DNA of 41,724 bases, taken from an uncultured Actinomycetes bacterium (lineage in GTDB: Bacteria; Chloroflexota; Dormibacteria; CF-121). A program made the translations under genes and the position numbers. Positions within the stretch are counted from its first letter, which is position 1; each line of letters starts with the position of its first letter. The stretch covers positions 1 through 41,724 of the forward strand of contig CAZRMD010000005.1 in NCBI GenBank assembly GCA_964601135.1, written 5' to 3'. Below, in pieces: positions 22,610-35,918 of the stretch. Under the pieces are notes generated by a model. That model had not been told where the DNA came from. It was given only the letters and a program-made list of their open reading frames with translations, and ran no database searches.

Positions 22610-22879
22610 ATGAATGTCGAGGTTCGGGCGACCGGGCTGCGTGCCATGCGCGAGAAGAAAGGGCTCACGCAGCGCGAGCTGGCACACCACCTGGGCATCA
22701 GCCAGAACTATATTCCGGCACTCGAGTCGGGAGCGAGGCGACCTGGACCAAAGCTGCGGCAGGCGTTGATGAAATTCTTCAACGTCAATTTCGAAGAACT
22801 CTTCGAGGTGGTCATGGTGAACCCGGAGAGCGCCAGCGAGCAGGTCCTCGAGCCACGCGACGAGCGTCGCGCCGGCTGA
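22610..22879 (+). CDS. XRE-family helix-turn-helix transcriptional regulator
   Basis: The 89-aa ORF has a Cro/C1-type HTH (LRAMREKKGLTQRELAHHLGISQNYIPALESGARRP). Confidence 0.8.
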   Translation: MNVEVRATGLRAMREKKGLTQRELAHHLGISQNYIPALESGARRPGPKLRQALMKFFNVNFEELFEVVMVNPESASEQVLEPRDERRAG

Positions 22880-22961: not shown

Positions 22962-23037
22962 GCCTGCATAGCTCAGTTGGTAGAGCAGCTGACTCTTAAT
23001 CAGTTGGTCCCGGGTTCGAATCCTGGTGCAGGCACCA
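22962..23037 (+). tRNA. tRNA-Lys (anticodon CTT)
   Basis: A manual cloverleaf fits. The acceptor GCCTGCA pairs with TGCAGGC. The D arm is GCTC-AGTTGGTA-GAGC and the anticodon arm is GCTGA-CTCTTAA-TCAGT. The T arm is CCGGG-TTCGAAT-CCTGG. The discriminator is A and the CCA end is encoded. Confidence 0.9.
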
Positions 23038-23169: not shown

Positions 23170-24522
23170 ATGCGCGGAGTTCGGATTCCTCAAGATCTCA
23201 ACGGCGAAGACCAGTTCGTTCTTGGCCTTTCGGTTCCCCGTCTCGCGGCTGTCTTACTCGGACTGCTAGCCGCGTACACCATCCTTCATCTCTCGCTTCC
23301 CGCCCCACTGCAGATCGGTGCGGCGTCATTTGCCGCGCTCGCCGGCGCCATCGTCGCCTGGGTGCGTCCGGAAGGACGTTCGCTGATCCATTGGGCCGTG
23401 GCCGCGATCGAGTTCAAACTGGGCGAGCGCCCAGCTCGAGTTGGGCGCGACGTCCACGAGCCGTCAAGCCCTGTATCAGCCGTTCCCCAGCGTCGGGTGA
23501 TCTCCAAGCCGGTAGCAGCCTCACCAAGTCTTCGGGTTCTGAGGGCTGCTTCGGACTCGCCGCAACCTCGTAGCCCAGAGATTTCGGCGGATCCCGAGGT
23601 GCTTGAAATCAGCGGCGAGCCTGACGTTGGACTGGCCGACCCGGAGGTTGCGGATGAGGCCGGTCGCCTGCTACCGGCTCCGGTGTACCTTGGCGGCCCG
23701 CAGTTGATCGCGTTCTTTTCCACGAAGGGCGGAACGGGCCGGACAACCCTGGCTACGGAGATCGCCTCATTGCTGGCAATGAAGGGTCGCTATCGCGAGT
23801 CACCGTCGAGCGGACCTCAGCGGCTCCGCGTCGCCTTGATCGATTTCGACCTGGCTTCGGCCAACGTTTCCGCTCGGTTCGGGCTCGCCCAGCCAACGAT
23901 GCTCGATTACCTGTCTGACGCCAGCGTGCCGCACCCCGATCCACGGGACTTTCTGATCCGTCATCCGGCAACCAGCGTCGATGTGCTGCTGGGCCCCTCA
24001 AAGTGCCTTGCCGGCGACCGCTCGGACCTCATGGGTGTCGCCCAAGCTGCGCACATCCTGAGCGCCTTGAAGGCAGCGGGGTATCAGTACCTGGTTCTCG
24101 ACCTCGCTGCGGCTCTGGGAGATCTCGAGACGTACCTGCTGGAAGCGGCCACCCGGATCTATTGCGTGGTGACGCCCACGGCCGGCTCGATTCAGTCGCT
24201 CTATCGGGGGGTTGAGGCTCTTCGACGGCTCGGCCTCGGGGCAAAGCTGCACTACGTCGCCAACAAGATGCGCGACGGCATCAGCCTCGCCGAACCCATG
24301 GGTGACCTCAACGGGTCGCTCGTCGCTCGCATTCCCTATGACCCTGCCTTTGAAGCCGCAGAGAATCGGCATCAACCGCTTGCCACCTATGGAAATGGGC
24401 CAACCCTTGACGCGCTGATGCAACTGGCCGCCGCGATCTACCCCGCATTGCAGGTTCCTCCGGCCGGCCGGTCCGCAGTGTCGCCATTCGCCTGGTTCGC
24501 AAGACGACGCCGTGCTGGCTGA
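23170..24522 (+). CDS. Fusion protein: N-terminal PrgI-family (VirB3-like) membrane domain, Pro/Ser/Glu-rich linker, C-terminal TadZ/CpaE-like MinD/ParA-type ATPase
   Basis: The N-terminus (RIPQDLNGEDQFVLGLSVPRLAAVLLGLLAAYTIL) plus a second hydrophobic segment matches the PrgI-family pattern. The linker contains DPEV repeats. The C-domain has the deviant Walker A FSTKGGTGRTT and a MinD/CpaE-like body (LIDFDL, YLVLDL, IPYDP). Confidence 0.75.
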   Translation: MRGVRIPQDLNGEDQFVLGLSVPRLAAVLLGLLAAYTILHLSLPAPLQIGAASFAALAGAIVAWVRPEGRSLIHWAVAAIEFKLGERPARVGRDVHEPSSPVSAVPQRRVISKPVAASPSLRVLRAASDSPQPRSPEISADPEVLEISGEPDVGLADPEVADEAGRLLPAPVYLGGPQLIAFFSTKGGTGRTTLATEIASLLAMKGRYRESPSSGPQRLRVALIDFDLASANVSARFGLAQPTMLDYLSDASVPHPDPRDFLIRHPATSVDVLLGPSKCLAGDRSDLMGVAQAAHILSALKAAGYQYLVLDLAAALGDLETYLLEAATRIYCVVTPTAGSIQSLYRGVEALRRLGLGAKLHYVANKMRDGISLAEPMGDLNGSLVARIPYDPAFEAAENRHQPLATYGNGPTLDALMQLAAAIYPALQVPPAGRSAVSPFAWFARRRRAG

Positions 24523-25822
24523 CGTATCTGCCCGCCCCGTGCCGCCGACACCCGAGGAGCTGCGACAATTCGTGCGCTCGCAGCTCACCCTGCAGGTGGA
24601 CCCGGAAATCATCAACCCGTTCTCCACCAATCCGAATCGTCAACAGATCCTCAGGGACCGGATTCGCCACGCCGTCATACAACGGCAACTGCTGCCGACC
24701 GCCGAGCTGGTCGACACGCTCTTCGATGAGATCGTCGGCCTGGGCCCGCTTGAGCCGCTCATGGCCGATCCCGACATCACAGACATCCTGGTGAATCGGT
24801 TCGACGAAATCTATGTCGAGCGGCGAGGCCGGCTCGAGTTCGTACCTTGCGCATTTCGCGACGACGCCCAGCTCGAGCAGGTGATTCACAAGATCGTGGC
24901 GCTCGTTGGCCGCGAGATCAACATCGACAAGCCGCTAGTCGACGCCAGGATGGTGGATGGGAGCCGCGCCAATGCGGTCTACGCGCCCGTTGGGGGACCG
25001 ACCTTGTGCATTCGAAAGTTCAGTCGGGTGCGGCTGGCGCTGGTCCCGGATGAGCGACGCCCAGATCTCCCCAGCTGGGTCAGCACGGGTGGCCTGTCGT
25101 CACAGATGGGCGCATTCCTCGAAGCCATGGGGGTGGCCCGGGCGAACATCTTGATCGCTGGCGCCACCGGAAGCGGCAAGAGTACCTTGCTTCGTTCCAT
25201 CGTCAGCGCCTTTCCCGAGGACGAGCGCGTGATCACGATCGAGGACACCGCCGAACTAGAGCTGGAGAACCCGCATTGGGTCAAGCTCGAGTGCGTGCAT
25301 TCCAGGGAACTGGCCGGCAAGACCACCCAGGAGCGGCGACTCGATGTTGCCGACCTGGTCCAGAACGCGCTCCGGATGCGACCGGACCGTTTGATCATCG
25401 GAGAGATCCGCCACAGCAAAGAGGCCTACTACGTGCTCGAAGCCCTGAACACCGGGCACGATGGCTCGGCGACCACCATCCATGCCAGCAGTTGCGATGA
25501 CGCCCTGGCACGGCTGGAGTTGTTGGTGAGTCGGGACTTTGGGCAATTGAGTGCGGGAGAAATCCGCCGTTATGTCGCCCGCGTCTTCGACCTTGTCGTC
25601 TTCGTCAGCCGGTTGCGGAATGGCCGCCGTTATGTCCTTGAAATTGCCGAGCTGCGCGGCATCGACCCCGATGGACAGTACCTGCTGATGCCAGTCTTCG
25701 TGGGGGATATCACCAACGGGCATCACGGGATCAGCGTTGATTTCAGAAGTCTTCCGGATTATCGACCCGGTACCCGCCTGAATCGGAAGCTCGAGCTGCA
25801 AGGGATGCGATGGCTTTCCTAG
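24512..25822 (+). CDS. tadA: TadA/CpaF-family secretion ATPase (T2SSE/VirB11 superfamily)
   Basis: Motifs: GLGPLEPLMADPDITDILVN, Walker A GATGSGKST, Walker B RPDRLIIGEIR, His box LNTGHDGSATTIHA. It overlaps the upstream gene by 11 nt. Confidence 0.9.
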   Translation: MLADVSARPVPPTPEELRQFVRSQLTLQVDPEIINPFSTNPNRQQILRDRIRHAVIQRQLLPTAELVDTLFDEIVGLGPLEPLMADPDITDILVNRFDEIYVERRGRLEFVPCAFRDDAQLEQVIHKIVALVGREINIDKPLVDARMVDGSRANAVYAPVGGPTLCIRKFSRVRLALVPDERRPDLPSWVSTGGLSSQMGAFLEAMGVARANILIAGATGSGKSTLLRSIVSAFPEDERVITIEDTAELELENPHWVKLECVHSRELAGKTTQERRLDVADLVQNALRMRPDRLIIGEIRHSKEAYYVLEALNTGHDGSATTIHASSCDDALARLELLVSRDFGQLSAGEIRRYVARVFDLVVFVSRLRNGRRYVLEIAELRGIDPDGQYLLMPVFVGDITNGHHGISVDFRSLPDYRPGTRLNRKLELQGMRWLS

Positions 25823-26664
25823 CCGCGGCCTGCGTGGCGATGGCGATCCTCACTCTGGGCCTGGCAATTCCGGCTGGCCACCAGCGTGACCAGCGACGAT
25901 GGATCGATTCGCTCCTGGACCGCAGCCGGGAGCGGCTGGTACAGGCGCGCATCGCCGGAGACCCGCGCACCTATCTCGCCCTGCAATTGCTGGCCCCGGT
26001 CGGGTTATTTGCGATCGGCTGGCTCCAATCGCCGGTTCTCGCGGTGGCCGGCGCTGTCGCTGGACTTTTGACTCCGCGCATGTACGTGGCCTGGTTGATA
26101 CGTACCCAGTCTCGGCGAAGCGAGGCGGAGGCGCCGCATTTGCTCCAGGCGCTGTTAACAGGTCTCAGCGCTAGCGGAACATACCTGGACGCGCTTCGGC
26201 AGGCCAGGCTCAGCTGTTCTGATTCCTGGCTGCAGCAGGACCTCGACTCCATCATCCAGCGATTCCTGCTCGACACACCGCTCCACGAGAGCCTGGAGGA
26301 GGTTCTTGGCCGGACGACGACCCGAAATCTCCGACTCATCTGGGAAACGCTGCGGATCTGCACCGAGAACCATTTGCCGACGGAGAAAGCCCGAAGCCTT
26401 TTCATGGAACTGTCCTCGACCGTGCAGTTCAATCTGCAGCTCGCCAACGAAGTGCGCGCTCGCTCCACGGGCCAGCGAGCCCAGATCTGGCTGCTGGCCA
26501 TCATCGTTCCGGCCATGTATCTCTACCTGCGATTGATGAGCCCGCAGCTGCTGACTGTCCTCGATGACACCATCGTGGGCCGCGTTGTTTTGTTTCCGCT
26601 GGCGGTGGCATTGGAACTCGGCGGTATCGTCCTCAGCTGGCGGATTGCTCGGTTCGAAGCATGA
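25810..26664 (+). CDS. tadB: TadB-like pilus platform protein (T2SSF domain)
   Basis: The 284-aa ORF has an N-terminal TM segment, a central soluble T2SSF-like helical domain and C-terminal TM segments. It overlaps tadA by 13 nt. Confidence 0.8.
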   Translation: MAFLAAACVAMAILTLGLAIPAGHQRDQRRWIDSLLDRSRERLVQARIAGDPRTYLALQLLAPVGLFAIGWLQSPVLAVAGAVAGLLTPRMYVAWLIRTQSRRSEAEAPHLLQALLTGLSASGTYLDALRQARLSCSDSWLQQDLDSIIQRFLLDTPLHESLEEVLGRTTTRNLRLIWETLRICTENHLPTEKARSLFMELSSTVQFNLQLANEVRARSTGQRAQIWLLAIIVPAMYLYLRLMSPQLLTVLDDTIVGRVVLFPLAVALELGGIVLSWRIARFEA

Positions 26665-27563
26665 TGGTGGGAGCGCTCTGCGCCGGGCTCGCCTGCTTTC
26701 TCGGCCTTCAGGCCGTTTTGATGGGTCCGCCGAAACGCTCGCTTGCCAGTCGAGAGTTGATTCGGGCGAGCACCCTTTCCCCGGTGGAATGGCGACTGCA
26801 TCAACAGGCCCGCCTGGATTGGTATCAACGCTGGCTGCGCCCGACGGTGTTGCTCTCGGCCGCTCGACTCCATCTTCGACCCAGCCGGATGGACCCGCTG
26901 TACTTCATTCAGGCGGGAATCAATCCGGAGCACGTCGATGGCACGGAGCTGCGCGTCATTCGATTGATGGCTGGGATTGCCGGCGCCGCAGCCGGCGGTC
27001 TCCTCGCTCTGTTCGTGTCGGGCGGTCTCGCCATCATTCCGTTGCTGGCATGGGTCGGCTACATTGCGCCGGCGCGCGCCATCGCGGCCCGGCGGCGGCA
27101 GCGCCAGTCGGCCCTTCAGCGTGAGCTGGCGCAACTGATCAGCATGCTCCGCGCCTTCATCACGGCCGGGATGCCACTCGAGCGGACGCTGCACATCCTG
27201 TCCGCAAGCTCGCGGCCCGACAGCATCCTCAAGCAGGAGATCCGGCACGCCTTGGGGCGGTACGGGCTTGGATTGAGCATCGAGCAGGCTCTGCAGGAAA
27301 TTGGACCCCGCACCGGCGTCGACGACCTCAGCGGATTTGTTGCCGCAGTCAGCCAGGCCAAGCGCGCGGGGAGCAGCCTGGAGGCAACGCTGCGCGATCA
27401 GGAGTTGATGGTTCGAATGAATCAGCGCAACCGGGCCACAGCGCAGGCCGCGGCGGTAAGCACCAAACTGCTCGCGGTGGTGGGCGGAGTCTACCTGCCG
27501 GAATTCGTGATCTTGATCATCGTTCCACTGTTCTGGGGAATCATGCGGCGGGCGTTTGGATGA
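26661..27563 (+). CDS. tadC: TadC-like pilus platform protein (T2SSF domain)
   Basis: The 300-aa ORF has a T2SSF-like segment (LAQLISMLRAFITAGMPLERTLHIL...LEATLRDQ) and flanking TM segments. An ATGA overlap joins it to tadB. Confidence 0.8.
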   Translation: MMVGALCAGLACFLGLQAVLMGPPKRSLASRELIRASTLSPVEWRLHQQARLDWYQRWLRPTVLLSAARLHLRPSRMDPLYFIQAGINPEHVDGTELRVIRLMAGIAGAAAGGLLALFVSGGLAIIPLLAWVGYIAPARAIAARRRQRQSALQRELAQLISMLRAFITAGMPLERTLHILSASSRPDSILKQEIRHALGRYGLGLSIEQALQEIGPRTGVDDLSGFVAAVSQAKRAGSSLEATLRDQELMVRMNQRNRATAQAAAVSTKLLAVVGGVYLPEFVILIIVPLFWGIMRRAFG

Positions 27564-27611
27564 AGCGGCGACCGATCCGTATTTCGTGAGGGGTTTAGTG
27601 GGAGGAAGCGC

Positions 27612-27764
27612 ATGAACACGTTGAAACGCGGACAGTCGACACTCGAATGGGTCATTGGTGCGGCGATCATTCTCGGCACGCTCGTGGTCGGCGTCATGGC
27701 TTGGAACCAGGGACTCGTGGCAAAGATGGGTCAGATGGTCCAGCGCCTGACGCAGACCCAATGA
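27612..27764 (+). CDS. flp: Flp-like / actinobacterial-type (DUF4244-like) prepilin, 50 aa, not in the ORF track
   Basis: The ATG at 27612 is preceded by a GGGAGGAAG RBS. Sequence: MNTLKRGQSTLEWVIGAAIILGTLVVGVMAWNQGLVAKMGQMVQRLTQTQ. It has a short basic leader, a G/QSTLEW class III processing motif with Glu at +5, then a hydrophobic helix. Its position after tadC matches actinobacterial tad loci. Confidence 0.75.
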   Translation: MNTLKRGQSTLEWVIGAAIILGTLVVGVMAWNQGLVAKMGQMVQRLTQTQ

Positions 27765-27792
27765 CAGCGGTCTTTCCGGCGCCGAACGCGCG

Positions 27793-28185
27793 ATGAGGCG
27801 ACGACGCCAGCAAGGCCAGGAAACGCTGCAGGCGATCCTGGTCGTCGCGTTCATGCTCCTGCCGGTCCTTTTCGGCATCATCGAGCTCGGCAGCGTGATC
27901 CAGGCGTGGATCGGCCAGCAATCTGCCACGGCGCTGGGGGCACGGGTCGCCGGTGAGCGCGGTGAGGACGACGCGACGGTCCGAGACCGTATTGCCGCTG
28001 AGCTACGGGCTGCCGGCCTTGACCCTGCGAAGGTTCAGGTACGCGTGATGCCCGCCTACGTGCCGTGGGGCCAGCCCATCACGGTTCGCCTGGTGAGCCA
28101 ACGCCGGGTGGCTATACCGTTCTTGTTCAGTCGCGACGTGACGCTGACGTCGACCTATGTGGGACGCGGAGAGATAAATCATTGA
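27793..28185 (+). CDS. tadE: TadE-like pseudopilin / pilus assembly protein
   Basis: The 130-aa ORF has the N-terminal TadE signature RRQQGQETLQAILVVAFMLLPVLFGIIELG. Confidence 0.75.
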   Translation: MRRRRQQGQETLQAILVVAFMLLPVLFGIIELGSVIQAWIGQQSATALGARVAGERGEDDATVRDRIAAELRAAGLDPAKVQVRVMPAYVPWGQPITVRLVSQRRVAIPFLFSRDVTLTSTYVGRGEINH

Positions 28186-28691
28186 CCGGGTCCGCGCGCT
28201 TGCGTTATCACCTGGTGCCCTGTAGGCGCCGCGGCCAGAGCGTCCTCTACGCGGTTCTCCTGATGCCCACGCTATTTCTCGTACTCGCCCTCGCCATCGA
28301 TATGGCGGGTCTGCAGCTCGACAAACTGCGAGTTCGATACGCGCTCGACATGGCAACCATCACCGGGGCGACGGCCGTCGACCGCAACACCTATATCCAA
28401 ACCGGTCGGCTGCGGCTCGATCCGAACGCTGCGACATCGGTGACCCGGGAATACCTGCTGCGAAACCTGAAAGCGCTGCCGGACACGCCGACGCCAGAAG
28501 AGGTCGCGGCGGGGGCCGACATCACGGTTGTCAACCGGGTTCCCGCCCACGATCCGTACACCGGCCTGGTACTGGACCGCCCGGCAATCTGTGCTCGCAT
28601 CAAGCTGCGCCACCGTTTTGACCTGCTTGGGTGGGTTGGTATGAACGCCATCAACTTCTCGGTCACATCGACAGCGGAGATCCGTACCTGA
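28182..28691 (+). CDS. TadG/TadF-like (Tad N-terminal domain) pseudopilin-like protein
   Basis: RRRGQSVLYAVLLMPTLFLVLALAIDMAGLQ resembles the TadE/G-like N-terminal domain. The start is uncertain: TTG 28182 (TTGA overlap with the tadE stop), TTG 28200 or GTG 28215. The ATG at 28065 in the track is an out-of-context extension. Confidence 0.65.
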   Translation: MTGSARLRYHLVPCRRRGQSVLYAVLLMPTLFLVLALAIDMAGLQLDKLRVRYALDMATITGATAVDRNTYIQTGRLRLDPNAATSVTREYLLRNLKALPDTPTPEEVAAGADITVVNRVPAHDPYTGLVLDRPAICARIKLRHRFDLLGWVGMNAINFSVTSTAEIRT

Positions 28692-29962
28692 CCAGGCTGC
28701 GAATCATCAAACGCTCGCTCGCCGGAGTCCTCGGTCTCAGCTTCCTGGCCGCCTCATCAGCCAGCGGCCAGACCGCAGCAGGGCCGAGTGTCAGCGTCAG
28801 CATCACCGCCGTATCCGGCGAGGCCGGGCATGCATTCGTGTATGCGCAGGTAAGCGATTTTTTGGCCACATTTCCCGCTCCTACCGGCACCACCCACCTG
28901 TCACCGTATTACTCGGAGTGGATTGAAGAACCCTTCGCGACCCCGTCCTGTCCGTGGATCTGGGCGGTATACGTGTTCAATCGCTGGACGAATGAACAGG
29001 TGAACACTCCTCCGCCAGGTGCGCCGCTGCCTACGTTCGGGACGACGACGCGAGTATGCGCCAGCCCGACAAGCACCCCGGTCGATCAGCCGCCGGTTGC
29101 AAATGCTTCCGCAGAGCTTGACCTGGATCTGCAGGTCAGCATGTCACCGCCGGTTGCGATCGCCGGGTCGACGACCCTGGTGTCGGCCAGTCTCAGTAGT
29201 GCACTGACCCAGGATCTAAACCTGTATCTGAGCATGGGCATCGCGGACTGGTCGGTGAGCGGCTGGTCGGTCGAGTTCGGTGACGGCCAGGCCGCGCGCC
29301 TCCATGGCGGCAGCGCAACGGCGATCCAGGTTCCCCACGTGTACCGCTCGGCCGGGACCTACGACACCCGAGTCGTCGCCTCGATATCTGGTCATGCGCA
29401 GGCGGCGGTCTACGATCGCTTCGGAAGCGTCCAGCTCATCCGCCGGCCGTTCAATGTCGACGTCGCCAATCATGCCCTGGCGACGACCCGTTCGCAGCCG
29501 GCACGGAGATACGTGCCGCCCGAGGCGACCGTGACCGTTTCGCCCAGCCTGGGCTTCGCAGCGGGGGACGCCAGTGCACCCGGTTTCCGCCAAATTGACG
29601 CGCTGCGCGGTTCGCTGACGACGCTAGCCGTCCACCTGCTCCTCATACGCGAAGGCCAACTGACCGTCGATGGCCGGTCGCGCGGCTACGGCCGCTCGCG
29701 CCTCACGGGCTGGCGTCTCGACGGCTCGCCTTCGGACGCCCCGCCAGGAAGTGGGACGATTCCCGGACCCATCCATGCCGCCGGTGATCTCCTGCGGCTG
29801 CAATGGAATGCGCCCGACCACGTCATCGGCGGGCAGCCGACCGACTACATCGTGCCCATGACGCTCTACATCGAGACGCGTTTTCCAGATGGCCATGTTG
29901 GGTCGTATGCCATGTCATCGAGCTTTTCAGTATCGGTTGGTTTTTCTGCACAGAGTGGCTAG
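28631..29962 (+). CDS. Secreted protein of unknown function with a PKD-like domain
   Basis: A Sec-type signal is present (RSLAGVLGLSFLAASSASG). A central segment (VEFGDGQAARLHGGSATAIQVPHVYRSAGTYDTRVVA) matches the PKD-domain consensus pattern. The start is uncertain; ATG 28631 overlaps the upstream gene by 61 nt. Confidence 0.6.
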   Translation: MGWYERHQLLGHIDSGDPYLTRLRIIKRSLAGVLGLSFLAASSASGQTAAGPSVSVSITAVSGEAGHAFVYAQVSDFLATFPAPTGTTHLSPYYSEWIEEPFATPSCPWIWAVYVFNRWTNEQVNTPPPGAPLPTFGTTTRVCASPTSTPVDQPPVANASAELDLDLQVSMSPPVAIAGSTTLVSASLSSALTQDLNLYLSMGIADWSVSGWSVEFGDGQAARLHGGSATAIQVPHVYRSAGTYDTRVVASISGHAQAAVYDRFGSVQLIRRPFNVDVANHALATTRSQPARRYVPPEATVTVSPSLGFAAGDASAPGFRQIDALRGSLTTLAVHLLLIREGQLTVDGRSRGYGRSRLTGWRLDGSPSDAPPGSGTIPGPIHAAGDLLRLQWNAPDHVIGGQPTDYIVPMTLYIETRFPDGHVGSYAMSSSFSVSVGFSAQSG

Positions 29963-29970
29963 GAGGGGAT

Positions 29971-30627
29971 ATGAAGCGGAGCATCTATTTGTCGGTGTGC
30001 GTTGTGCTTGCGGCCGCCGCCGGATTTTTCTACTACAGCCAAACCCGCCAGTCGACGGCGGTCGTTGCGACCCGCGATCTCAGTGTTGGCGTCCGCATTC
30101 AGGACGCCGACGTAACCACGCGATCGGTGAATCCACTGTCGCTCGACGGCCAGATGCTTCGAACACCCGATCAGGCCATCGGCCAGGTGGTCGCCTTTCC
30201 GATTCTGCAAGGACAGTTCATCGGTGCACGGCAGGTTGCGCCATCAAAGAACGCCGCGATGCTGACCGCAGGATTGCAGGTGCCGGCAGGCTACCGCGTC
30301 ATCGGCGTACCCATTGCACCGGCCACCGCGGTGGGCGGCGTGCTCAAGCCCGGTGATCTGGTCGATGTCATGGCAATCCCTAATCCATCGAAGGCCACGG
30401 GGATCATCGATGAAGCCACGCCCACGCCGACCACGATCGGCAAGAATGTGCTGGTGCTCGGGCTTCGGACTGATCAGGGGGCGCAGGTCGACCAGTCCGA
30501 CCATGGACTGACCGTCGGCAATAGCAAGCCGGAGAGCGTCCTGCTGGCAATCCCGGAGGCCGAGGAAACAACCTACTCGCACGCCATTGCCAGCTCGACC
30601 TTCGTCCTGGCTCTGAGCACCGACTGA
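29971..30627 (+). CDS. cpaB: CpaB/RcpC-family Flp pilus assembly protein (SAF plus RcpC-like domains)
   Basis: The ATG at 29971 is preceded by an AGGAGGGG RBS. An N-terminal TM segment is followed by a SAF-like segment (VVATRDLSVGVRIQDADV) and YRVIGVPIAPATAVGGVLKPGDLVDVM, typical of CpaB. Confidence 0.75.
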   Translation: MKRSIYLSVCVVLAAAAGFFYYSQTRQSTAVVATRDLSVGVRIQDADVTTRSVNPLSLDGQMLRTPDQAIGQVVAFPILQGQFIGARQVAPSKNAAMLTAGLQVPAGYRVIGVPIAPATAVGGVLKPGDLVDVMAIPNPSKATGIIDEATPTPTTIGKNVLVLGLRTDQGAQVDQSDHGLTVGNSKPESVLLAIPEAEETTYSHAIASSTFVLALSTD

Positions 30628-30637
30628 GCGGTCGTCG

Positions 30638-32860
30638 ATGGTCAGACTGTTTCACCGGGCGGGCTTTGGCGGCGAGGTATCGGCCGTCCGCGACGGTCTC
30701 CTGATGCTCAGGAGCGGCTCACCCCGGGCGCTGATCGCGACCTCCTCCTTGAATTTCGAAGGTCTCGCCCCCGAGCACCAGCTGCGCGCCGTGCAAGCTT
30801 TTCGAGACCTCTTGCACGCTCAGGCCGGCCCGTTACAGCTGTATCTTCGAGTCCGGCGGCTTCCGGCAGGTGACGCCCAGGAGCCCGAGGCTGACCGCTT
30901 CGCTTACCGGCGCGATTATCTCGCGGCCTCGACGCGCAGCTTCATCAATGCCCATCTGCAGGACACCCCGGTCTACCAGCGAGAGGTCCTCATCGTTCTG
31001 GCGCCAATCGAGTCCGGGCGTCAGCTGCTCCGTTCGTGGCGCTTTCGCTTTGACCGCTCGAATGAGGCAGCCTATGTCGCGACCGACCTCGGACAGCCGC
31101 TCAAGGCTCGCGCCCACTCCTTGATCGACCAGTTGCGCCGGATCGGGCTCAAGGGTGAGCTGCTCGACGACCGCGCGCTGACCCTCCTGGTCGAGGATCT
31201 CTACGGCAAGGGGTGGCCAATCGAGTCGGGTGCGCGCCAGGACTTTGCCAATCGAGCCGACAGCCTGGAAATCCAGGGTCGCCGATACGTCTCGTTCGTG
31301 GTTGACCGCTATCCCGGCGAAGAGATCGAACCCGGCTGGCTCCTGCCGCTGCTGAGCTTTAAGGGCGAGCTCCATGTCGGCATTCACATTCAGCCGCTGG
31401 AGACGGATCGGATGCTGGCCATTCTTCATCACCGCATCCGTGACCTCCGGGCCGACGACATGGCGAATCAGGAGTCAGGTGCACTGCGACGAGGCGCGGT
31501 GGGTACCCTTCCAGATGCGCTCACCATGCATCAGGCGCTCGCGCGCAACGAGGAGAAGGCCTTCGCCGTCAGCTTTTATCTGACGGTCGGCGCCGACGAT
31601 CCAGTCCAGCTCCGCAGCCAGGTTGACGCGCTGCGCACAAGCTGCCGGCGAATGATGCTGCATACCGTGCAGCCGTACTTCGAGATGCGGCAGGGCCTCC
31701 TGTCCTGCTGGCCACTGGGAACCGATCTCCTCGCTCGGCAGAGCATCCTCCACACGAGTGCCGTCGCGACGATGTTTCCCTGGTTGCAGGAAGACCTGGC
31801 CGATCCGGAGGGGCACTACTGGGGCTACAACAAAGACACCGGCGGCCTGTGCGTCTTCGATCCCTTCGACGAAAGCCGTTTTACCAATGCCAACATCGCG
31901 GTGCTGGCGCATTCGGGAGCGGGCAAGAGCTATGCGGCGGCCTCCGTGGTGCTCAGCGGCTATACGCGCGGGCTCGGTGCGATCGTTCTGGATCCGGAGG
32001 CCGAGTATGGGGGCATGATCCGCAACCTGGGCGGCACGTACTTTCACCTGGCGGCCGGTTCGGGCCACGCCATCAACGTCCTCGACCCATTGCTCTTTGC
32101 CCTCGATTCGGAAGAGCCGACGGATCAGTTGGCCGACGTGTTGGATCTGATCGCCTTGATGTGCGGCCGGCTCGACGAGTTCGAACGGGCACAGATCGAG
32201 ACGGTCATCCGTTCGGTCCTCGCCAGCGGCGACACGACCCCCGTGCTCCGGGACGTCTGGCGGCGTCTGGACGCGACCCACCCCGGATCACGCCCCAGCA
32301 CCATTCTTCGACGCTGGGTAACGGGGGATCTGGGAGGACTGTTCAGCGCACCAACCAATGTCGATCTGAGTACGGCGATCGTTGGTTTCAACCTGCGCGA
32401 CCTGAGCGATGAACTGATCCCTCCGGCGTATCTCATCCTGGCCAACTGGTTATGGGCATCGCTAAGACGGCAACGGAGACCTCGGCATCTTCTGATCGAC
32501 GAGGCCGGGCTCCTGCTTGAACACGAACCCATCCGCCGATTCCTGATCAGGCTGGCGCGTCGCATCCGAAAGTATGGCGGGAGTTTGATCCTGGTCAGCC
32601 AGAACCCCGGAGACTTCTTCGAAACCAAGGACGGTGCGGTCCTGGCGACCAACCCCAGCATCCTGCTCCTCGGGTCGCAGAAGCACTCAGAGGCTGTCAA
32701 GCTGCAGAAGGCCTTCAACCTGACGGAACGGCAGCTGAACTATCTCGAAACGGCTGAGCGCGGTGACTTCCTCCTGGTTGCCGGACCCAATCGGGTGCCG
32801 GTCCACATCATGGCCCCTCCCTGGATGGATGAAATGATCGTGACTTCCCGCGGACATTGA
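30638..32860 (+). CDS. VirB4/PrgJ/TrsE-like type IV secretion ATPase (DUF87/TraC-VirB4 family)
   Basis: The 740-aa ORF has an N-terminal domain typical of Gram-positive VirB4 homologues (LIATSSLNFEGLAPEHQLRAVQAFRDLLHAQAGPLQLYLRVRRL). Motifs: Walker A HSGAGKSY, ILDPEAEYGGMIRNLGGTYFHL, INVLDP, Walker B LLIDEAGLLL, and RKYGGSLILVSQNPGDF. Confidence 0.8.
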   Translation: MVRLFHRAGFGGEVSAVRDGLLMLRSGSPRALIATSSLNFEGLAPEHQLRAVQAFRDLLHAQAGPLQLYLRVRRLPAGDAQEPEADRFAYRRDYLAASTRSFINAHLQDTPVYQREVLIVLAPIESGRQLLRSWRFRFDRSNEAAYVATDLGQPLKARAHSLIDQLRRIGLKGELLDDRALTLLVEDLYGKGWPIESGARQDFANRADSLEIQGRRYVSFVVDRYPGEEIEPGWLLPLLSFKGELHVGIHIQPLETDRMLAILHHRIRDLRADDMANQESGALRRGAVGTLPDALTMHQALARNEEKAFAVSFYLTVGADDPVQLRSQVDALRTSCRRMMLHTVQPYFEMRQGLLSCWPLGTDLLARQSILHTSAVATMFPWLQEDLADPEGHYWGYNKDTGGLCVFDPFDESRFTNANIAVLAHSGAGKSYAAASVVLSGYTRGLGAIVLDPEAEYGGMIRNLGGTYFHLAAGSGHAINVLDPLLFALDSEEPTDQLADVLDLIALMCGRLDEFERAQIETVIRSVLASGDTTPVLRDVWRRLDATHPGSRPSTILRRWVTGDLGGLFSAPTNVDLSTAIVGFNLRDLSDELIPPAYLILANWLWASLRRQRRPRHLLIDEAGLLLEHEPIRRFLIRLARRIRKYGGSLILVSQNPGDFFETKDGAVLATNPSILLLGSQKHSEAVKLQKAFNLTERQLNYLETAERGDFLLVAGPNRVPVHIMAPPWMDEMIVTSRGH

Positions 32861-32987
32861 CCGGCCGGCCTCATTGATTTTTACCGCCTTACGCCTAATA
32901 ATTAGCGGCTGAATTTGCGCTGAGCGTCACCGCGGGAGCGGGGTCGGGCGCGCGTGGCTGGGGACGCCATGGAAAGGGGAAAAGACG

Positions 32988-33194
32988 GTGCAGGACCTCA
33001 CTGATCGTCGCAATGAGGAGGCCCGCGAGGTCCGGGATTTGCTGGCTGCCAAGCTCAAGATGCACCCCATCTGGCTGGGCGGGCTCGAGACCCAGGCAGC
33101 GCGACATATCTATCTGTTCATCCAGGCGCTGGAAGGGCGCAAGCCATTCGGGCGGGTGCGGCGGCAGCGGGCGCCCAACCTGACGCTAGACTGA
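32988..33194 (+). CDS. Hypothetical small protein (68 aa)
   Basis: The GTG start is preceded by a purine-rich GGAAAGGGGAAAAG tract. There is a strong G/C bias at third codon positions. I recognise no family. Confidence 0.4.
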   Translation: MQDLTDRRNEEAREVRDLLAAKLKMHPIWLGGLETQAARHIYLFIQALEGRKPFGRVRRQRAPNLTLD

Positions 33195-33267
33195 CGGCGA
33201 TCTGGAGCTGATACCACGCGCCGACCAGCAGGCCGGCACCTTCACCCTGCTTGCCTCCGACCGCCCC

Positions 33268-35321: not shown

Positions 35322-35918
35322 ATGCGCCGTGTCCTGTTCTACCGCCTGTACGATGTCGCCCCTGCTCGGCTTTCCGAGTTGGAGAAAGAGGGCCGGGCAT
35401 TCTCCCGCGGCCGCGCCTGGCGCGGAGATGCGTTCTGGCTGGCAACCGAGAATTCAACCGACCTGTTCGCCATGGAGTACTTCCGCCACGCTCGTGACGA
35501 AGAAGGGCCATCACTGTCGGCGGCGGGATTCCTTCGCATGCTCGGTGATGAAACCGATGCCATCGCCACCCTCTATTTCCTCAACGACGCGGCGCAGCGC
35601 TTCCACGCGCGGGCGACGCTCCGCGACGACGAGAATCCGATCGCCAAGCTTCGCAACCTGGAGATCCGGCAGGGTCGACTGCCGTCCGGGTTGCCCATCG
35701 AGGACGTGCTGGCGGCGCGGCCGGTGATCAAGAAGATGGAGGGCGAGCCGATCACCTTCTATCCGCCCACCTACCGCCCCAACGCCTATTTCCGGCGTGA
35801 CAAGCCTGGAATGTGGGGATTCAGCCTCAAAGGGATCCGCGACTTCGCCCCCTCGTTCCTGGAAGCCGAGGCGGAAGCGATGCGCATCTATCGAGGATTC
35901 CGCCAGCTCAACCCGTGA
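35322..35918 (+). CDS. Hypothetical protein (198 aa), no family recognised
   Basis: This is a long ORF with coding-like codon bias. Its stop overlaps the GTG start of the downstream hydrolase (GTGA). Confidence 0.55.
   Translation: MRRVLFYRLYDVAPARLSELEKEGRAFSRGRAWRGDAFWLATENSTDLFAMEYFRHARDEEGPSLSAAGFLRMLGDETDAIATLYFLNDAAQRFHARATLRDDENPIAKLRNLEIRQGRLPSGLPIEDVLAARPVIKKMEGEPITFYPPTYRPNAYFRRDKPGMWGFSLKGIRDFAPSFLEAEAEAMRIYRGFRQLNP

What the first reader, a model, noticed from the sequence alone, without database searches (positions are those of the whole stretch)
23170..32860. Single operon combining a complete Tad (type IVc) pilus core with VirB3-like and VirB4-like T4SS components
SEEN: ten same-strand genes are tightly packed, with overlaps of 4-61 nt or gaps of 48 nt or less. 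They follow the actinobacterial Tad order: TadZ-like, TadA/CpaF, TadB, TadC, Flp-like pilin, TadE-like, TadG-like. A secreted PKD-like protein and CpaB come next. The first gene carries an N-terminal PrgI-family (VirB3-like) membrane domain. The last gene encodes a 740-aa VirB4/PrgJ/TrsE-like ATPase. The operon therefore encodes three P-loop NTPases: MinD-like, CpaF-like and VirB4-like. I find no relaxase, VirD4/TcpA-type coupling protein, VirB6-like channel, VirB8/TcpC-like protein, peptidoglycan hydrolase or integrase in the window.

ESTABLISHED: type IV filament machines (T4P, T2SS, Tad, Com, archaeal pili) use PilB/CpaF-type ATPases. T4SS are defined by VirB4. The two are treated as evolutionarily separate machineries, and PrgI-type genes normally sit directly upstream of VirB4 genes in Gram-positive conjugation modules.

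INFERENCE: the tight coupling and intact ORFs argue for one functional hybrid apparatus rather than a decayed ICE next to a pilus locus. One attractive hypothesis is a DNA exchange or uptake device. The analogies are Sulfolobus, where Ups type IV pili cooperate with the Ced system whose motor CedB is VirB4-like, and the Tad-dependent natural transformation reported in Micrococcus luteus. Protein or effector export through a Tad-scaffolded conduit is an alternative. I do not know of a described system class with this composition.
Basis: partly seen in the sequence, partly recalled or inferred. Interest (0 to 1): 0.9.

Follow-up and report, generated by a model that had tools for sequence, protein, structure and literature searches.

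The report
Tad pilus operon with VirB3/VirB4 motor
An uncultured soil bacterium of the phylum Dormibacterota carries a chromosomal operon that joins a complete Tad adhesion-pilus machine to the VirB3/VirB4 motor of conjugation systems. The pairing is conserved across deeply diverged relatives, so it is probably one undescribed hybrid machine and not a broken mobile element.

Summary
Ten tightly packed same-strand genes (23170-32860) encode PrgI(VirB3-like)::TadZ, CpaF, TadB, TadC, Flp, TadE, TadG, an Ig/PKD membrane protein, CpaB and a true VirB4 ATPase. The flanks are housekeeping genes. The window has no relaxase, coupling protein, VirB6/VirB8 homologue or integrase.

The organism belongs to Dormibacterota (AD3), not Actinobacteria. 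All ten genes, in the same order, are present in all 15 species-representative contigs long enough to span the locus. The operon minus the PKD gene, including the PrgI::TadZ fusion, recurs in a lineage whose VirB4 is only about 31-34% identical.

Other lineages keep Flp-TadE-TadG-CpaB-VirB4, or PrgI::TadZ-VirB4. The largest clade keeps only a free-standing prgI-virB4 pair at the same chromosomal position. Relatives outside the phylum are ordinary T4SS or conjugation modules with VirB2-like pilins, VirB6, a coupling protein and a relaxase.

My best reading is one chromosomally fixed composite machine. The VirB3-like hairpin fused to TadZ would tether the VirB4 hexamer to the Tad platform. The cargo is unknown; I favour DNA or another macromolecule, but nothing here tests that. 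I found no published description. The nearest precedents are PAPI-1-type T4P/VirB4 chimeras, Cutibacterium acnes tad plasmids, Patescibacteria T4SS and Ced/Ups.

The parts
22610..22879 (+). XRE-type HTH regulator. It is a conserved upstream neighbour and a candidate regulator of the operon.
   Evidence: Pfam HTH_3, 51.4 bits. It is 84-99% identical in type A loci, more conserved than any operon gene. It is also next to the PrgI::TadZ-VirB4 locus L087. A regulatory role is inferred, not shown.
22962..23037 (+). tRNA-Lys (CTT) immediately upstream of g1.
   Evidence: ARAGORN. The same tRNA lies next to prgI in 12 of the 14 type A loci scanned (+ strand) and in two type C loci (- strand). No att-like direct repeat of it occurs downstream of VirB4. 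It is therefore conserved synteny, not a recent integration scar.
23170..24522 (+). g1: a fusion protein. It has an N-terminal VirB3-like PrgI membrane hairpin, a Pro/Ser-rich linker, and a TadZ/CpaE-like MinD/ParA ATPase domain with a KGGTGR variant Walker A.
   Evidence: Pfam PrgI 30.1 bits (above GA), CbiA and AAA_31. NCBIfam minD_arch and 'KGGVGR-motif variant'. PF12666 is recorded for nearly all of 120 homologues. It aligns end to end with the L085 fusion at 33% identity and with the L087 fusion at 27%.
23182..23430 (+). PrgI/VirB3-like domain of g1 (aa 5-87), with two hydrophobic helices.
   Evidence: Pfam covers positions 1-87 of the 91-position profile. It is 28-42% identical to free-standing ~100-aa PrgI genes that lie directly upstream of VirB4 in type C loci. 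It aligns with a Pfam-annotated PrgI of a Patescibacteria-type T4SS locus.
23704..24441 (+). MinD/ParA-type (TadZ-like) domain of g1 (aa 179-424). There is no room for the receiver-like N-terminal domain of classical TadZ.
   Evidence: AAA_31 at 179-342 and minD_arch at 179-424. Best PDB matches are FleN and MinD.
24512..25822 (+). g2: CpaF/TadA secretion ATPase (VirB11/PulE superfamily).
   Evidence: T2SSE 155 bits. NCBIfam best hit is TIGR03819, 'TadA family conjugal transfer-associated ATPase', at 242 bits (below its cutoff of 373); VirB11 scores 199 bits. Best plasmid matches are annotated CpaF at about 40% identity.
25810..26664 (+). g3: TadB-like platform protein.
   Evidence: T2SSF is weak (19.8 bits, below GA). 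Its position and conservation next to TadC hold in all full operons.
26661..27563 (+). g4: TadC-like platform protein.
   Evidence: T2SSF 48.7 bits.
27612..27764 (+). g5: Flp-type pilin (50 aa).
   Evidence: No Pfam hit. The sequence has a class III signal-like KRG|QSTLEW followed by a hydrophobic helix. It is 62-94% identical in loci down to L085 and is the most conserved operon protein.
27793..28185 (+). g6: TadE-like minor pilin.
   Evidence: TadE 21.0 bits (GA 22.9). Conserved in types A and B and in L084-L086 and L088.
28182..28691 (+). g7: TadG-like / Tad-domain minor pilin. The start is uncertain; the longest ORF starts at 28065.
   Evidence: Tad 17.9 bits (GA 22.3). A TTG at 28182 gives a 4-nt overlap with the g6 stop. 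The L002 homologue is 157 aa.
28631..29962 (+). g8: membrane-anchored Ig/PKD beta-sandwich protein. Its true start is probably about 57 nt further downstream.
   Evidence: PKD 24.5 bits. The AF2 model (pLDDT 72) shows an N-terminal helix followed by all-beta domains. Foldseek against the PDB gives only Ig/PKD-like matches, none with E <= 1e-3 and none VirB8/TcpC-like. The gene is found in type A and L084 and is absent from L085, L086 and type B.
29971..30627 (+). g9: CpaB/RcpC, always immediately upstream of VirB4 in Tad-linked loci.
   Evidence: RcpC 46.5 bits and SAF 31.3. TIGR03177 scores 75.9, above its cutoff. CpaB-VirB4 adjacency, with gaps of 1-85 nt, is seen in types A and B and in L083-L086 and L088.
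30638..32860 (+). g10: VirB4-family T4SS ATPase (740 aa) with intact Walker A (GAGKS) and Walker B (IDE).
   Evidence: PDB 4AG5 VirB4, E = 1.8e-35. NCBIfam CD1110-family VirB4 scores 237.7 bits (below its cutoff of 325); TraC and VirB4_CagE score 95-117 bits. Catalytic residues are invariant in a 21-sequence alignment that goes down to 28% identity.
35322..35918 (+). unk198: a conserved cytoplasmic protein of unknown fold. It follows VirB4 across the phylum. Whether it belongs to the system is uncertain.
   Evidence: 45-52% identical between type A and type C loci, where it lies directly after VirB4. No Pfam hit and no PDB sequence hit. The single-sequence AF2 model failed (pLDDT 36).
35813..36781 (+). 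Alpha/beta hydrolase (Hydrolase_4 / S33). It is a conserved neighbour downstream of VirB4 and unk198. Whether it belongs to the system is uncertain.
   Evidence: Hydrolase_4 239 bits. A homologue follows VirB4 in types A, B and C. It is absent next to VirB4 in L084-L086 and L088.

Best explanation
This is a chromosomally fixed composite envelope machine of the monoderm phylum Dormibacterota. A complete monoderm-type Tad (type IVc) pilus apparatus is present: CpaF motor, TadB/TadC platform, Flp pilin, TadE/TadG minor pilins, a CpaB ring protein and an Ig-like surface protein. The VirB3-VirB4 motor module of a Gram-positive-type type IV secretion system has been built into it.

Proposed mechanism:
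1. The VirB3-like two-helix hairpin normally anchors VirB4 to the membrane. Here it is fused to the N-terminus of TadZ, the ParA/MinD-like protein that organises the Tad platform, and it replaces TadZ's usual localisation domain.
2. This fusion acts as a physical adaptor that docks a VirB4 hexamer at the cytoplasmic face of the Tad platform, next to the VirB11-superfamily ATPase CpaF.
3. CpaF builds and retracts the Flp filament through the CpaB ring. VirB4 supplies the function it has in every T4SS, which is to energise movement of a macromolecule across the membrane. The Tad filament and CpaB conduit stand in for the missing VirB2 pilus and VirB6/VirB8 channel.
4. The system is chromosomal, vertically inherited and lacks a relaxase or coupling protein nearby. 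It therefore serves the cell, not a mobile element. My preferred cargo is DNA, as in Ced-type exchange or uptake between cells held together by the pili.

What is shown and what is inferred:
- Shown: gene content, the fusion, conservation, chromosomal context and homology.
- Inferred: physical docking, co-action of the two motors and any cargo.

Rough probabilities: one co-functioning machine 0.75; DNA cargo 0.35; protein or other cargo 0.25; VirB4 acts only in pilus dynamics 0.25. The confidence of 0.55 given for this entry is for the composite, translocating machine as described, whatever the cargo.
For: 1. Domain assignments are solid for the key parts: PrgI above the Pfam gathering score, T2SSE, T2SSF, CpaB above the NCBIfam cutoff, and VirB4 matching PDB 4AG5 at E = 1.8e-35.

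2. All ten genes, in the same order, are present in all 15 Dormibacterota species-representative contigs that span the locus. There are no counter-examples, and the flanks are always FolC-FolD-FolB-HTH-tRNA-Lys and (melibiase)-unk198-hydrolase-Dtd.

3. The linkage is deep. L085 has VirB4 at 31-34% identity and still has PrgI::TadZ-CpaF-TadB-TadC-Flp-TadE-TadG-CpaB-VirB4. Its fusion protein aligns end to end with g1. L086 shows the same order, truncated by the contig end.

4. Partial forms keep exactly the parts predicted to interact.
- L087 retains only PrgI::TadZ (with a degenerate Walker A) directly upstream of VirB4.
- Seven lineage samples retain CpaB-VirB4 adjacency.
- The largest clade retains prgI-virB4.

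5. The g1 N-terminus is homologous (28-42% identity) to free-standing PrgI genes that sit in the canonical position before VirB4.

6. VirB4 is under strong constraint. At the deepest type A comparison (L018) it is 61% identical, against 44-48% for TadB, TadC, TadG, PKD and CpaB. Walker A, Walker B and arginine residues are invariant.

7. Relatives outside the phylum are conventional T4SS: T4SS_pilin, TrbL/VirB6, PrgI and VirB4, with or without T4CP and a relaxase. In Dormibacterota the Tad genes therefore occupy the place of VirB2/VirB6.

8. Tight coupling, with 4-13 nt overlaps and a 10-nt CpaB-VirB4 gap, fits co-translation.

9. Established knowledge: VirB3 binds and anchors VirB4 and is sometimes fused to it (PMC12102498, section 13). 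Chimeric VirB4/T4P and VirB4/T7SS transfer systems exist (PMC12857230, section 21).
Against: - There is no experimental or transcript evidence. The promoter and terminator scans were uninformative.
- No VirB6-, VirB8- or T4CP-like protein was found in the operon or in the rest of the window, so there is no obvious route for a substrate. The g8 model shows no VirB8/TcpC-like fold.
- In about 50 species (type C) prgI-virB4 stands alone with no Tad gene within 10 kb. VirB4 therefore has some role that does not need adjacent Tad genes. I could not check whether those genomes carry Tad loci elsewhere.
- Type B loci show no PrgI or TadZ within 10 kb.
- Nothing in the locus points specifically to DNA: there is no ComEC, relaxase, nuclease or SSB.
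- The TadZ Walker A is a K-to-R variant, and its first lysine is not conserved in L085 or L087. Its ATPase activity is doubtful, although that still fits a scaffold role.
- Docking of VirB4 on the fusion protein was not modelled.
Confidence: 0.55

Rival explanations
1. VirB4 acts as a second pilus motor and not as a substrate translocase. In conjugative T4SS, VirB4 extracts small hydrophobic VirB2 pilins from the membrane to feed pilus growth. Here it would do the same for the short Flp pilin, or drive retraction. It would work with or instead of CpaF, and the PrgI::TadZ fusion would hold it at the platform. The output would be a special Tad pilus for adhesion, aggregation or motility, with no cargo.
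For: - Type B loci and L084 and L088 contain only pilins, CpaB and VirB4, with no CpaF, TadB or TadC within 10 kb.
- Outgroup VirB4 genes sit next to VirB2-like pilin genes, so pilin handling is plausibly the ancestral role.
- No channel or coupling protein is present.
- Flp is the most conserved protein of the operon.
Against: - CpaF alone is known to power both extension and retraction of Tad pili (PMC6920026), so a second motor is not needed in full operons.
- Type C loci keep prgI-virB4 with no pilin gene nearby.
- No case is known of a VirB4 acting on a type IV pilin.
Confidence: 0.25
2. This is a domesticated remnant that merely lies beside a pilus locus. An ancient conjugative element integrated at tRNA-Lys and decayed to prgI-virB4. 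A Tad operon later landed between the two genes. The PrgI::TadZ fusion and the adjacency are then tolerated accidents. VirB4 has an unrelated housekeeping role, perhaps with unk198 and the alpha/beta hydrolase, or no role at all.
For: - tRNA-Lys lies next to prgI in both type A and type C loci, and tRNA genes are classic ICE integration sites.
- In the largest clade prgI-virB4-unk198-hydrolase stands without Tad genes.
- The closest mobile relatives are ordinary conjugation modules.
Against: - A decayed gene would not stay intact, with invariant catalytic residues, over divergence down to about 30% identity.
- The fusion is kept in three deep lineages, and in L087 it is the only Tad component retained next to VirB4.
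- In the NJ tree, Tad-linked lineages lie both basal to and beside the prgI-virB4-only clade. Loss of Tad genes is therefore more parsimonious than insertion.
- There are no att repeats, no integrase and no compositional break.
Confidence: 0.1
3. This is part of an ordinary conjugative element or T4SS whose other genes lie outside the window. The relaxase, T4CP, VirB6 and VirB8 would be encoded elsewhere, and the Tad pilus would serve as the mating-pair stabiliser, as the R64 thin pilus and PAPI-1 pilus do.
For: - T4CP genes are often encoded far from virB4 (PMC12102498).
- C. acnes plasmids carry a tad locus beside FtsK-like, VirB4 and TcpC genes (PMC5696575).
- L087 has a TrbL_4 (VirB6-like) gene 1.4 kb downstream of VirB4, and CHAP and SLT wall hydrolases upstream.
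Against: - At least 23 kb upstream and 9 kb downstream in the window are housekeeping genes.
- The same chromosomal synteny is seen in contigs of 219 and 266 kb and across the phylum. This means vertical inheritance, not a mobile element.
- No mobility gene was found within 10 kb of the locus in any of the loci I annotated.
Confidence: 0.1

Closest known systems
Tad / Flp (type IVc) pilus of monoderms (e.g. Mycobacterium tuberculosis Rv3654c-Rv3660c, Bifidobacterium breve, Micrococcus luteus)
   Same: The gene set and order match: TadZ-TadA/CpaF-TadB-TadC-Flp-TadE-TadG, with no secretin. A CpaB/SAF-domain protein is present and the pilin is short and Flp-like.
   Different: TadZ carries a VirB3-like membrane hairpin in place of its usual N-terminal domain. 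A VirB4 ATPase is the last gene of the operon. No prepilin peptidase is in the window.
Gram-positive / MPF-FATA-type T4SS (pCF10 PrgI-PrgJ, CD1110-family VirB4; actinobacterial plasmid modules such as Embleya NZ_CP108778.1)
   Same: The VirB4 is homologous to these (CD1110 family 237.7 bits). The VirB3-like PrgI partner is present. The lineage is monoderm.
   Different: There is no VirB6/PrgH, VirB8/PrgL/TcpC, wall hydrolase, T4CP or relaxase. PrgI is a domain of another protein and lies 7.5 kb away from virB4. The locus is chromosomal and vertically inherited. VirB4 scores below the family cutoff of 325.
PAPI-1 / ICE-type chimeric transfer systems (type IVb pilus plus VirB4 plus VirD4) and the pRAW T4SS/ESX chimera (PMC12857230, section 21)
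   Same: A VirB4 ATPase works with a type IV-filament machine, or another non-T4SS machine, in place of a canonical VirB channel.
   Different: Those systems are on mobile elements, have a T4CP and a relaxase, and use a T4bP (PilB-type) pilus. They have no VirB3 fusion and their genes are not in one pilus operon. The present system is Tad-type, chromosomal and lacks a T4CP.
Cutibacterium acnes linear plasmids (p15.1.R1 family) with a tad locus adjacent to FtsK-like, VirB4 and TcpC genes (PMC5696575)
   Same: Tad genes and a VirB4-family gene are neighbours in a monoderm. The authors asked whether the Flp pili are linked to the transfer apparatus.
   Different: That case is plasmid-borne, with two separate loci and additional FtsK-like and TcpC components. 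The link was left 'unclear'. I could not retrieve the record to compare the proteins.
Chromosomal T4SS of Patescibacteria (PMC12102498)
   Same: It comes from the sister monoderm lineage. It is chromosomal, mostly lacks a relaxase and includes PrgI and VirB4. Patescibacterial VirB4s (P0386, 30% identity over the full length) are among the nearest outgroups.
   Different: The Patescibacteria system has VirB2-like pilin arrays, a TrsD/TraC-like protein and VirB6, and no Tad genes.
Ced DNA-import system plus Ups type IV pili of Sulfolobales (PMC9905601, PMC11868833)
   Same: The concept is shared: a chromosomal, relaxase-free VirB4-like motor cooperates with type IV pili for exchange of cellular DNA.
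   Different: Ced and Ups are separate loci. Ced has its own VirB2-like and VirB6-like proteins. The present ATPase scores only 24 bits on CedD against up to 238 bits on bacterial VirB4 models.
Myxococcus Kil Tad pilus working with a needle-less T3SS* (PMC12075869)
   Same: It is a precedent for a Tad pilus cooperating with the core of a different secretion system in a contact-dependent process.
   Different: The partner system is different (T3SS). It is encoded separately, the organism is a diderm, and the function is predation.

Membership tests
Tad (type IVc) pilus system | CpaF/TadA secretion ATPase | tested here: met
   T2SSE 155.5 bits. Closest NCBIfam models are TadA- and VirB11-type. 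Plasmid homologues are annotated CpaF.
Tad (type IVc) pilus system | Two GspF-family platform proteins (TadB, TadC) | tested here: met
   g4 T2SSF scores 48.7 bits, above GA. g3 T2SSF scores 19.8, below GA, but g3 is the conserved paralogous neighbour.
Tad (type IVc) pilus system | Flp-type pilin with the G/xxxxE-Y(W) processing motif, plus TadE/TadF-like minor pilins | tested here: inconclusive
   g5 has no Pfam hit, but the motif RG|QSTLEW is visible. g6 TadE (21.0) and g7 Tad (17.9) are just below GA. L037 and L085 homologues give Tad hits.
Tad (type IVc) pilus system | TadZ/CpaE ParA-like organiser | tested here: met
   CbiA and AAA_31 score above GA and the gene is in first position. The Walker A is the variant KGGTGR, and the N-terminal domain is replaced by PrgI.
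Tad (type IVc) pilus system | CpaB/RcpC | tested here: met
   TIGR03177 scores 75.9, above its cutoff of 71. RcpC scores 46.5.
Tad (type IVc) pilus system | Prepilin peptidase TadV/CpaA | tested here: not met
   No A24-type peptidase was found among the window ORFs scanned. It may be encoded elsewhere in the genome, as is usual in monoderm Tad systems (my own knowledge).
Tad (type IVc) pilus system | Secretin RcpA (diderm systems only) | tested here: not met
   None in the window. This is expected, because Dormibacteraeota are placed in a monoderm clade (bioRxiv 10.1101/2021.05.31.446380).
Type IV secretion system / conjugative MPF (FATA type) | VirB4 ATPase | tested here: met
   PDB 4AG5, E = 1.8e-35. 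VirB4 NCBIfam models score 95-238 bits, all below their equivalog cutoffs. Pfam P-loop_TraG scores 43.1, above GA.
Type IV secretion system / conjugative MPF (FATA type) | VirB3/PrgI membrane partner | tested here: met
   Pfam PrgI scores 30.1, above GA 27. It is a domain fused to TadZ, not a separate gene. It is homologous to free-standing PrgI genes.
Type IV secretion system / conjugative MPF (FATA type) | Channel components VirB6/PrgH and VirB8/PrgL/TcpC, and a wall hydrolase | tested here: not met
   No Pfam hit in any window ORF. The g8 model is Ig/PKD-like, not NTF2/VirB8-like.
Type IV secretion system / conjugative MPF (FATA type) | Coupling protein (VirD4/TcpA) and relaxase, required for a conjugative system | tested here: not met
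   None in the 41.7-kb window, and none within 10 kb in the related loci I annotated. Whole genomes were not searchable.
HerA/FtsK or Ced-type ATPase (alternative identity of g10) | Best profile match to HerA, FtsK or CedB/CedD and not to VirB4 | tested here: not met
   CedD scores 24.4 bits and HerA models score 16-22 bits, against 95-238 bits for VirB4 models. PDB HerA hits have E > 0.1.
Integrative conjugative element | Integrase, att repeats, compositional island, variable presence among relatives | tested here: not met
   There is no integrase and no repeat of the tRNA-Lys 3' end. GC is a flat 0.62-0.65 across the locus. The locus is fixed at the same chromosomal site in all relatives.
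Chimeric VirB4 + type IV pilus transfer systems (PAPI-1 type) | VirB4 encoded together with a type IV-filament machine that is needed for transfer | tested here: inconclusive
   Co-encoding is met, and is tighter than in PAPI-1 because it is one operon. The T4CP and relaxase of PAPI-1 are absent. A requirement for transfer cannot be tested with these tools.

The most novel reading that the evidence does not exclude
Dormibacterota possess a distinct, phylum-wide class of envelope machine. A T4SS VirB3-VirB4 motor has permanently replaced its own VirB2 pilus and VirB6/VirB8 channel with a Tad type IV filament apparatus, joined through a VirB3::TadZ fusion. This would be the first case of the two supposedly separate machine superfamilies merging into one structure. 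It would be used for chromosomal DNA exchange or uptake, or for another host-beneficial transfer. In the pilin-CpaB-VirB4 'half operons' (type B, L084, L088), VirB4 might even be the motor that assembles a type IV pilin filament.
Probability: 0.3. Interest if true: 0.92.

Novelty: new variant of a known kind. Interest (0 to 1): 0.8.

Why it matters
Type IV filament machines (PilB/CpaF motors) and type IV secretion systems (VirB4 motors) are taught as evolutionarily and mechanistically separate. Known cases of cooperation, such as R64, PAPI-1 and Ced/Ups, involve separately encoded modules, mostly on mobile elements.

Here the two are joined at the level of an operon, and even of a single polypeptide (VirB3::TadZ). 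The arrangement is fixed in the chromosome and has been maintained over deep divergence in a whole, widespread, uncultured soil phylum.

If the machine is real:
- It gives a natural experiment on what the minimal VirB3-VirB4 unit does when stripped of the rest of a T4SS.
- It shows how a VirB4 can be plugged into a foreign platform.
- It bears on how monoderm bacteria without known competence or conjugation genes might exchange DNA.
- It provides an evolutionary series (full operon, half operon, VirB3::TadZ-VirB4, VirB3-VirB4) that can be used to test which contacts are essential.
- It may shed light on the still unexplained relaxase-free T4SS of the sister phylum Patescibacteria.

Tried and rejected
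- **Recent ICE integration at tRNA-Lys.** No att-like repeat, no integrase and no GC break. The tRNA is conserved next to prgI across the phylum. Rejected.
- **g8 as a hidden VirB8/TcpC-like or channel component.** The AF2 model (pLDDT 72) is a TM helix plus Ig/PKD sandwiches. No Foldseek PDB hit has E <= 1e-3, and the PDB sequence search gave nothing. Rejected.
- **unk198 as a TrsD-like or VirB4 N-terminal-like protein, or fused to the longer hydrolase of type B loci.** hhalign against the L028 hydrolase N-terminus gave probability 0.15. A profile search against PDB sequences found nothing. Unresolved.
- **Genome scan with a 21-sequence VirB4 alignment.** It failed for lack of conserved stretches. 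A 7-sequence alignment worked.
- **Promoter and terminator scan.** Counts were at chance level and gave no information.
- **Retrieving the C. acnes tad plasmid to compare directly.** The accession I recalled is not in the collection. A CpaF search of plasmids returned only proteobacterial CpaF in the listed rows.
- **Literature searches for a Tad-VirB4, TadZ-VirB3 or Dormibacterota pilus/T4SS description.** Nothing matched this composition.
- **Not possible with the remaining caps.** I could not check whether type B and type C genomes carry TadZ, CpaF, TadB and TadC elsewhere, or a T4CP, relaxase or VirB6.

Full report
**1. Observation**

The region 23170-32860 contains ten same-strand ORFs.
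- g1 has a PrgI-family domain at aa 5-87 (30.1 bits, above the gathering score of 27), followed by a MinD/ParA-type domain.
- g2 is a CpaF/TadA-type T2SSE ATPase (155 bits).
- g3 and g4 are GspF-family platform proteins. g4 scores above threshold and g3 is weak.
- g5 is a 50-aa protein with a Flp-like processing motif, KRG|QSTLEW.
- g6 and g7 give near-threshold TadE and Tad hits.
- g8 has a PKD domain.
- g9 is CpaB/RcpC and scores above the NCBIfam cutoff.
- g10 is a 740-aa VirB4.

The VirB4 call is firm. The best solved-structure match is the VirB4 C-terminal domain of Thermoanaerobacter (4AG5, E = 1.8e-35). NCBIfam VirB4 models score 95-238 bits, against 16-24 bits for CedD and HerA models. 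Walker A, Walker B and arginine residues are invariant in an alignment that reaches 28% identity.

With plausible start codons the genes overlap by 4-13 nt or are separated by at most 48 nt.

The rest of the 41.7-kb window encodes housekeeping functions. There is no relaxase, coupling protein, VirB6/VirB8, integrase or prepilin peptidase. GC content is flat. A tRNA-Lys lies just upstream, but no att-type repeat of it occurs downstream.

**2. Organism and conservation**

Homologues of VirB4, g1 and g8 come from soil metagenomes and from MAGs labelled Chloroflexi/Chloroflexota or Candidatus Dormibacteraeota. A scan of one genome per GTDB species returned 209 relatives. The best 80 all belong to Dormibacterota MAGs, apart from a few evidently mislabelled bins. 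This phylum is placed in a monoderm clade with Chloroflexi and CPR (bioRxiv 10.1101/2021.05.31.446380), which explains why there is no secretin.

I mapped the window's proteins onto these loci with tblastn and annotated selected loci. This gave a clear series.
- **Type A** (VirB4 57-87% identical). All ten genes are present in the same order in all 15 species-representative contigs that span the locus. The flanks are always FolC-FolD-FolB-HTH-tRNA-Lys and (melibiase)-unk198-hydrolase-Dtd.
- **Deep full operons.** L085 (VirB4 about 31-34% identical) has PrgI::TadZ-CpaF-TadB-TadC-Flp-TadE-TadG-CpaB-VirB4. Its first protein aligns end to end with g1 at 33% identity, including the N-terminal hairpin. 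L086 shows the same order but is cut by the contig end.
- **Half operons.** Type B loci and L084 and L088 have Flp-TadE-TadG-(PKD)-CpaB-VirB4, with no CpaF, TadB or TadC within 10 kb.
- **L087.** A PrgI::TadZ protein with a degenerate Walker A sits directly upstream of VirB4, followed by unk198 and Dtd.
- **Type C** (about 50 species, VirB4 35-44% identical). A free-standing ~100-aa PrgI gene, 28-42% identical to the g1 N-terminus, lies immediately upstream of VirB4. unk198 and the same alpha/beta hydrolase follow. No Tad gene and no other T4SS gene lies within 10 kb. Neighbours are a LuxR-STAND regulator, GNAT, MFS and PadR genes, and FolB/D/C a few kb away.

tRNA-Lys lies next to prgI in both type A and type C loci. 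Only one MAG (CF_140) has both a type A and a type C locus, so the types are essentially alternative states of one chromosomal locus.

A neighbour-joining tree rooted on a Patescibacteria VirB4 places A, B and C as sister clades, with further Tad-linked lineages more basal. This makes Tad linkage the likelier ancestral state and type C a deletion product. An NJ tree is weak evidence, however.

**3. Relatives outside the phylum**

The nearest relatives outside Dormibacterota are conventional.
- A Patescibacteria-type locus has an array of VirB2-like pilins, PrgI, a TraC/TrsD-like gene and VirB4.
- An actinobacterial-type locus has a T4SS pilin, TrbL/VirB6, VirB4 and a T4CP.
- A third locus has TrbL, a pilin, VirB4 and a relaxase.

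The best plasmid matches are at most 32% identical and mostly lie on conjugative plasmids of Firmicutes and Actinomycetota. An Embleya plasmid shows PrgI-x-VirB4-T4CP-relaxase-NlpC/P60, and a Miltoncostaea plasmid shows PrgI-x-VirB4. None has Tad genes next to VirB4. In Dormibacterota, therefore, the Tad genes occupy the genomic place that VirB2/VirB6 occupy elsewhere.

**4. Interpretation**

Several observations argue that the VirB3-VirB4 module and the Tad machine work together and are not accidental neighbours:
- The locus is fixed at one chromosomal site.
- VirB4 is conserved more strongly than most Tad components. At the deepest type A comparison it is 61% identical, against 44-48% for TadB, TadC, TadG, PKD and CpaB.
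- The VirB3::TadZ fusion persists in three deep lineages.
- In L087 that fusion is the only Tad-derived gene kept beside VirB4.
- CpaB-VirB4 adjacency is near-universal in Tad-linked loci.

VirB3 is the membrane anchor and binding partner of VirB4 and is fused to VirB4 in some systems (PMC12102498). A two-helix hairpin leaves both ends in the cytoplasm, so fusing it to the cytoplasmic TadZ ATPase is topologically sound. The hairpin also replaces the localisation domain that classical TadZ proteins carry (my own knowledge of TadZ architecture).

I therefore propose that g1 is an adaptor that docks the VirB4 hexamer on the Tad platform next to CpaF. CpaF is itself a VirB11-superfamily ATPase (VirB11 model, 199 bits).

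What VirB4 then does is inferred only. CpaF alone can extend and retract Tad pili (PMC6920026), so I favour a translocation role. The locus is chromosomal and relaxase-free, and Ced/Ups and the Patescibacteria T4SS offer analogies. On that basis I favour exchange or uptake of DNA or another macromolecule for the benefit of the cell. A pure pilus-motor role is a serious rival, especially for the half operons.

The main weaknesses are these:
- There is no recognisable channel protein. The g8 model is Ig/PKD-like, not VirB8-like.
- prgI-virB4 stands alone in the largest clade.
- I could not search whole genomes for the missing parts.

**5. Comparison with the literature**

Full-text searches found no description of a Tad operon containing VirB3/VirB4, and no account of Dormibacterota pili or T4SS. 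Related concepts do exist:
- A 2025 review lists chimeric systems in which VirB4 works with a type IV pilus (PAPI-1) or an ESX system (pRAW) (PMC12857230).
- Cutibacterium acnes linear plasmids carry a tad locus beside FtsK-like, VirB4 and TcpC genes, and the functional link was left open (PMC5696575).
- Patescibacteria have a chromosomal, mostly relaxase-free T4SS (PMC12102498).
- The Myxococcus Kil Tad pilus cooperates with a T3SS-like core (PMC12075869).

The present system differs from all of these. It is a single operon joined by a domain fusion. It is Tad-type, chromosomal and vertically inherited, and it lacks a T4CP, a relaxase and VirB6/VirB8.

**6. Verdict**

The 'one hybrid apparatus' reading is well supported by comparative genomics but has not been tested experimentally. 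The specific function is open. I class the system as a new variant of the known kind 'chimeric VirB4-plus-other-machine assemblies', with a real chance that it deserves a class of its own. Interest is high (0.8).

Noticed in passing
window 35322-35918 and 35813-36781; e.g. L035:12000-13419, L068:11598-13014: A 198-aa cytoplasmic protein has no Pfam or PDB match. It is 45-52% identical across the phylum, which is better conserved than VirB4. It and a Hydrolase_4 alpha/beta hydrolase follow VirB4 in type A and C loci. Type B loci have the hydrolase but no detected unk198 homologue. In type A loci an alpha-galactosidase gene is inserted between VirB4 and this pair. It may be an unrecognised part of the VirB4 module.
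   Followed up: partly
window 22962-23037; L035:9469-9544 (-); L068:9070-9145 (-): tRNA-Lys (CTT) lies next to the prgI sequence both in Tad-linked loci (same strand) and in loci with prgI-virB4 only (opposite strand). This could be the trace of a very old integration event, or simply conserved synteny.
   Followed up: partly
window 22610-22879: The XRE-family HTH gene just upstream is 84-99% identical across type A loci, more conserved than any operon protein. A 60%-identical copy sits beside the PrgI::TadZ-VirB4 locus L087. It is a likely dedicated regulator.
   Followed up: partly
L001:12270-16037; probably also the ~4-kb inserts after VirB4 in L007, L010, L015: In some type A genomes a 1255-aa protein with CLIPPER repeats and a sortase domain is inserted directly after virB4. 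It may be a surface adhesin or anchoring enzyme associated with the system.
   Followed up: no
L087:13447-14391, L087:1-1220: This lineage has PrgI::TadZ (degenerate Walker A) followed by VirB4. A TrbL_4 (VirB6-like) gene lies 1.4 kb downstream of VirB4, and CHAP and SLT wall-hydrolase genes lie 9-10 kb upstream. This hints that some lineages combine the module with T4SS-type channel parts.
   Followed up: partly
window 23704-23745 (g1 aa 179-192); L085, L087 homologues: The TadZ-like Walker A is KGGTGRTT, with the second lysine replaced by arginine. The first lysine is not conserved either (NGGTGR in L085, EPAVGR in L087). This suggests a scaffold and not an active ATPase.
   Followed up: partly
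L005 and L063 (both from MAG CF_140, VBIW01): One MAG carries both a type A (Tad-linked) and a type C (prgI-virB4 only) locus, each with its own unk198 and hydrolase. This is either true paralogy or a mixed bin.
   Followed up: no
L029, L030, L036, L038, L043 (record titles): Several contigs with typical Dormibacterota synteny belong to MAGs labelled Acidoferrum, Eisenbacteria or Nitrosotalea. These are probably mis-binned or mislabelled assemblies.
   Followed up: no
L028:13572-15002, L037:7537-9093: In type B loci a PocR-GAF-GGDEF diguanylate cyclase follows VirB4 and the hydrolase. A hydrolase/adenylate-cyclase fusion lies upstream on the opposite strand. This hints at cyclic-nucleotide control.
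   Followed up: no
window 32861-33267: A 407-nt gap with no annotated gene separates virB4 from the alpha-galactosidase gene. L002 has a called 106-aa ORF at the equivalent place. It was not examined further.
   Followed up: no
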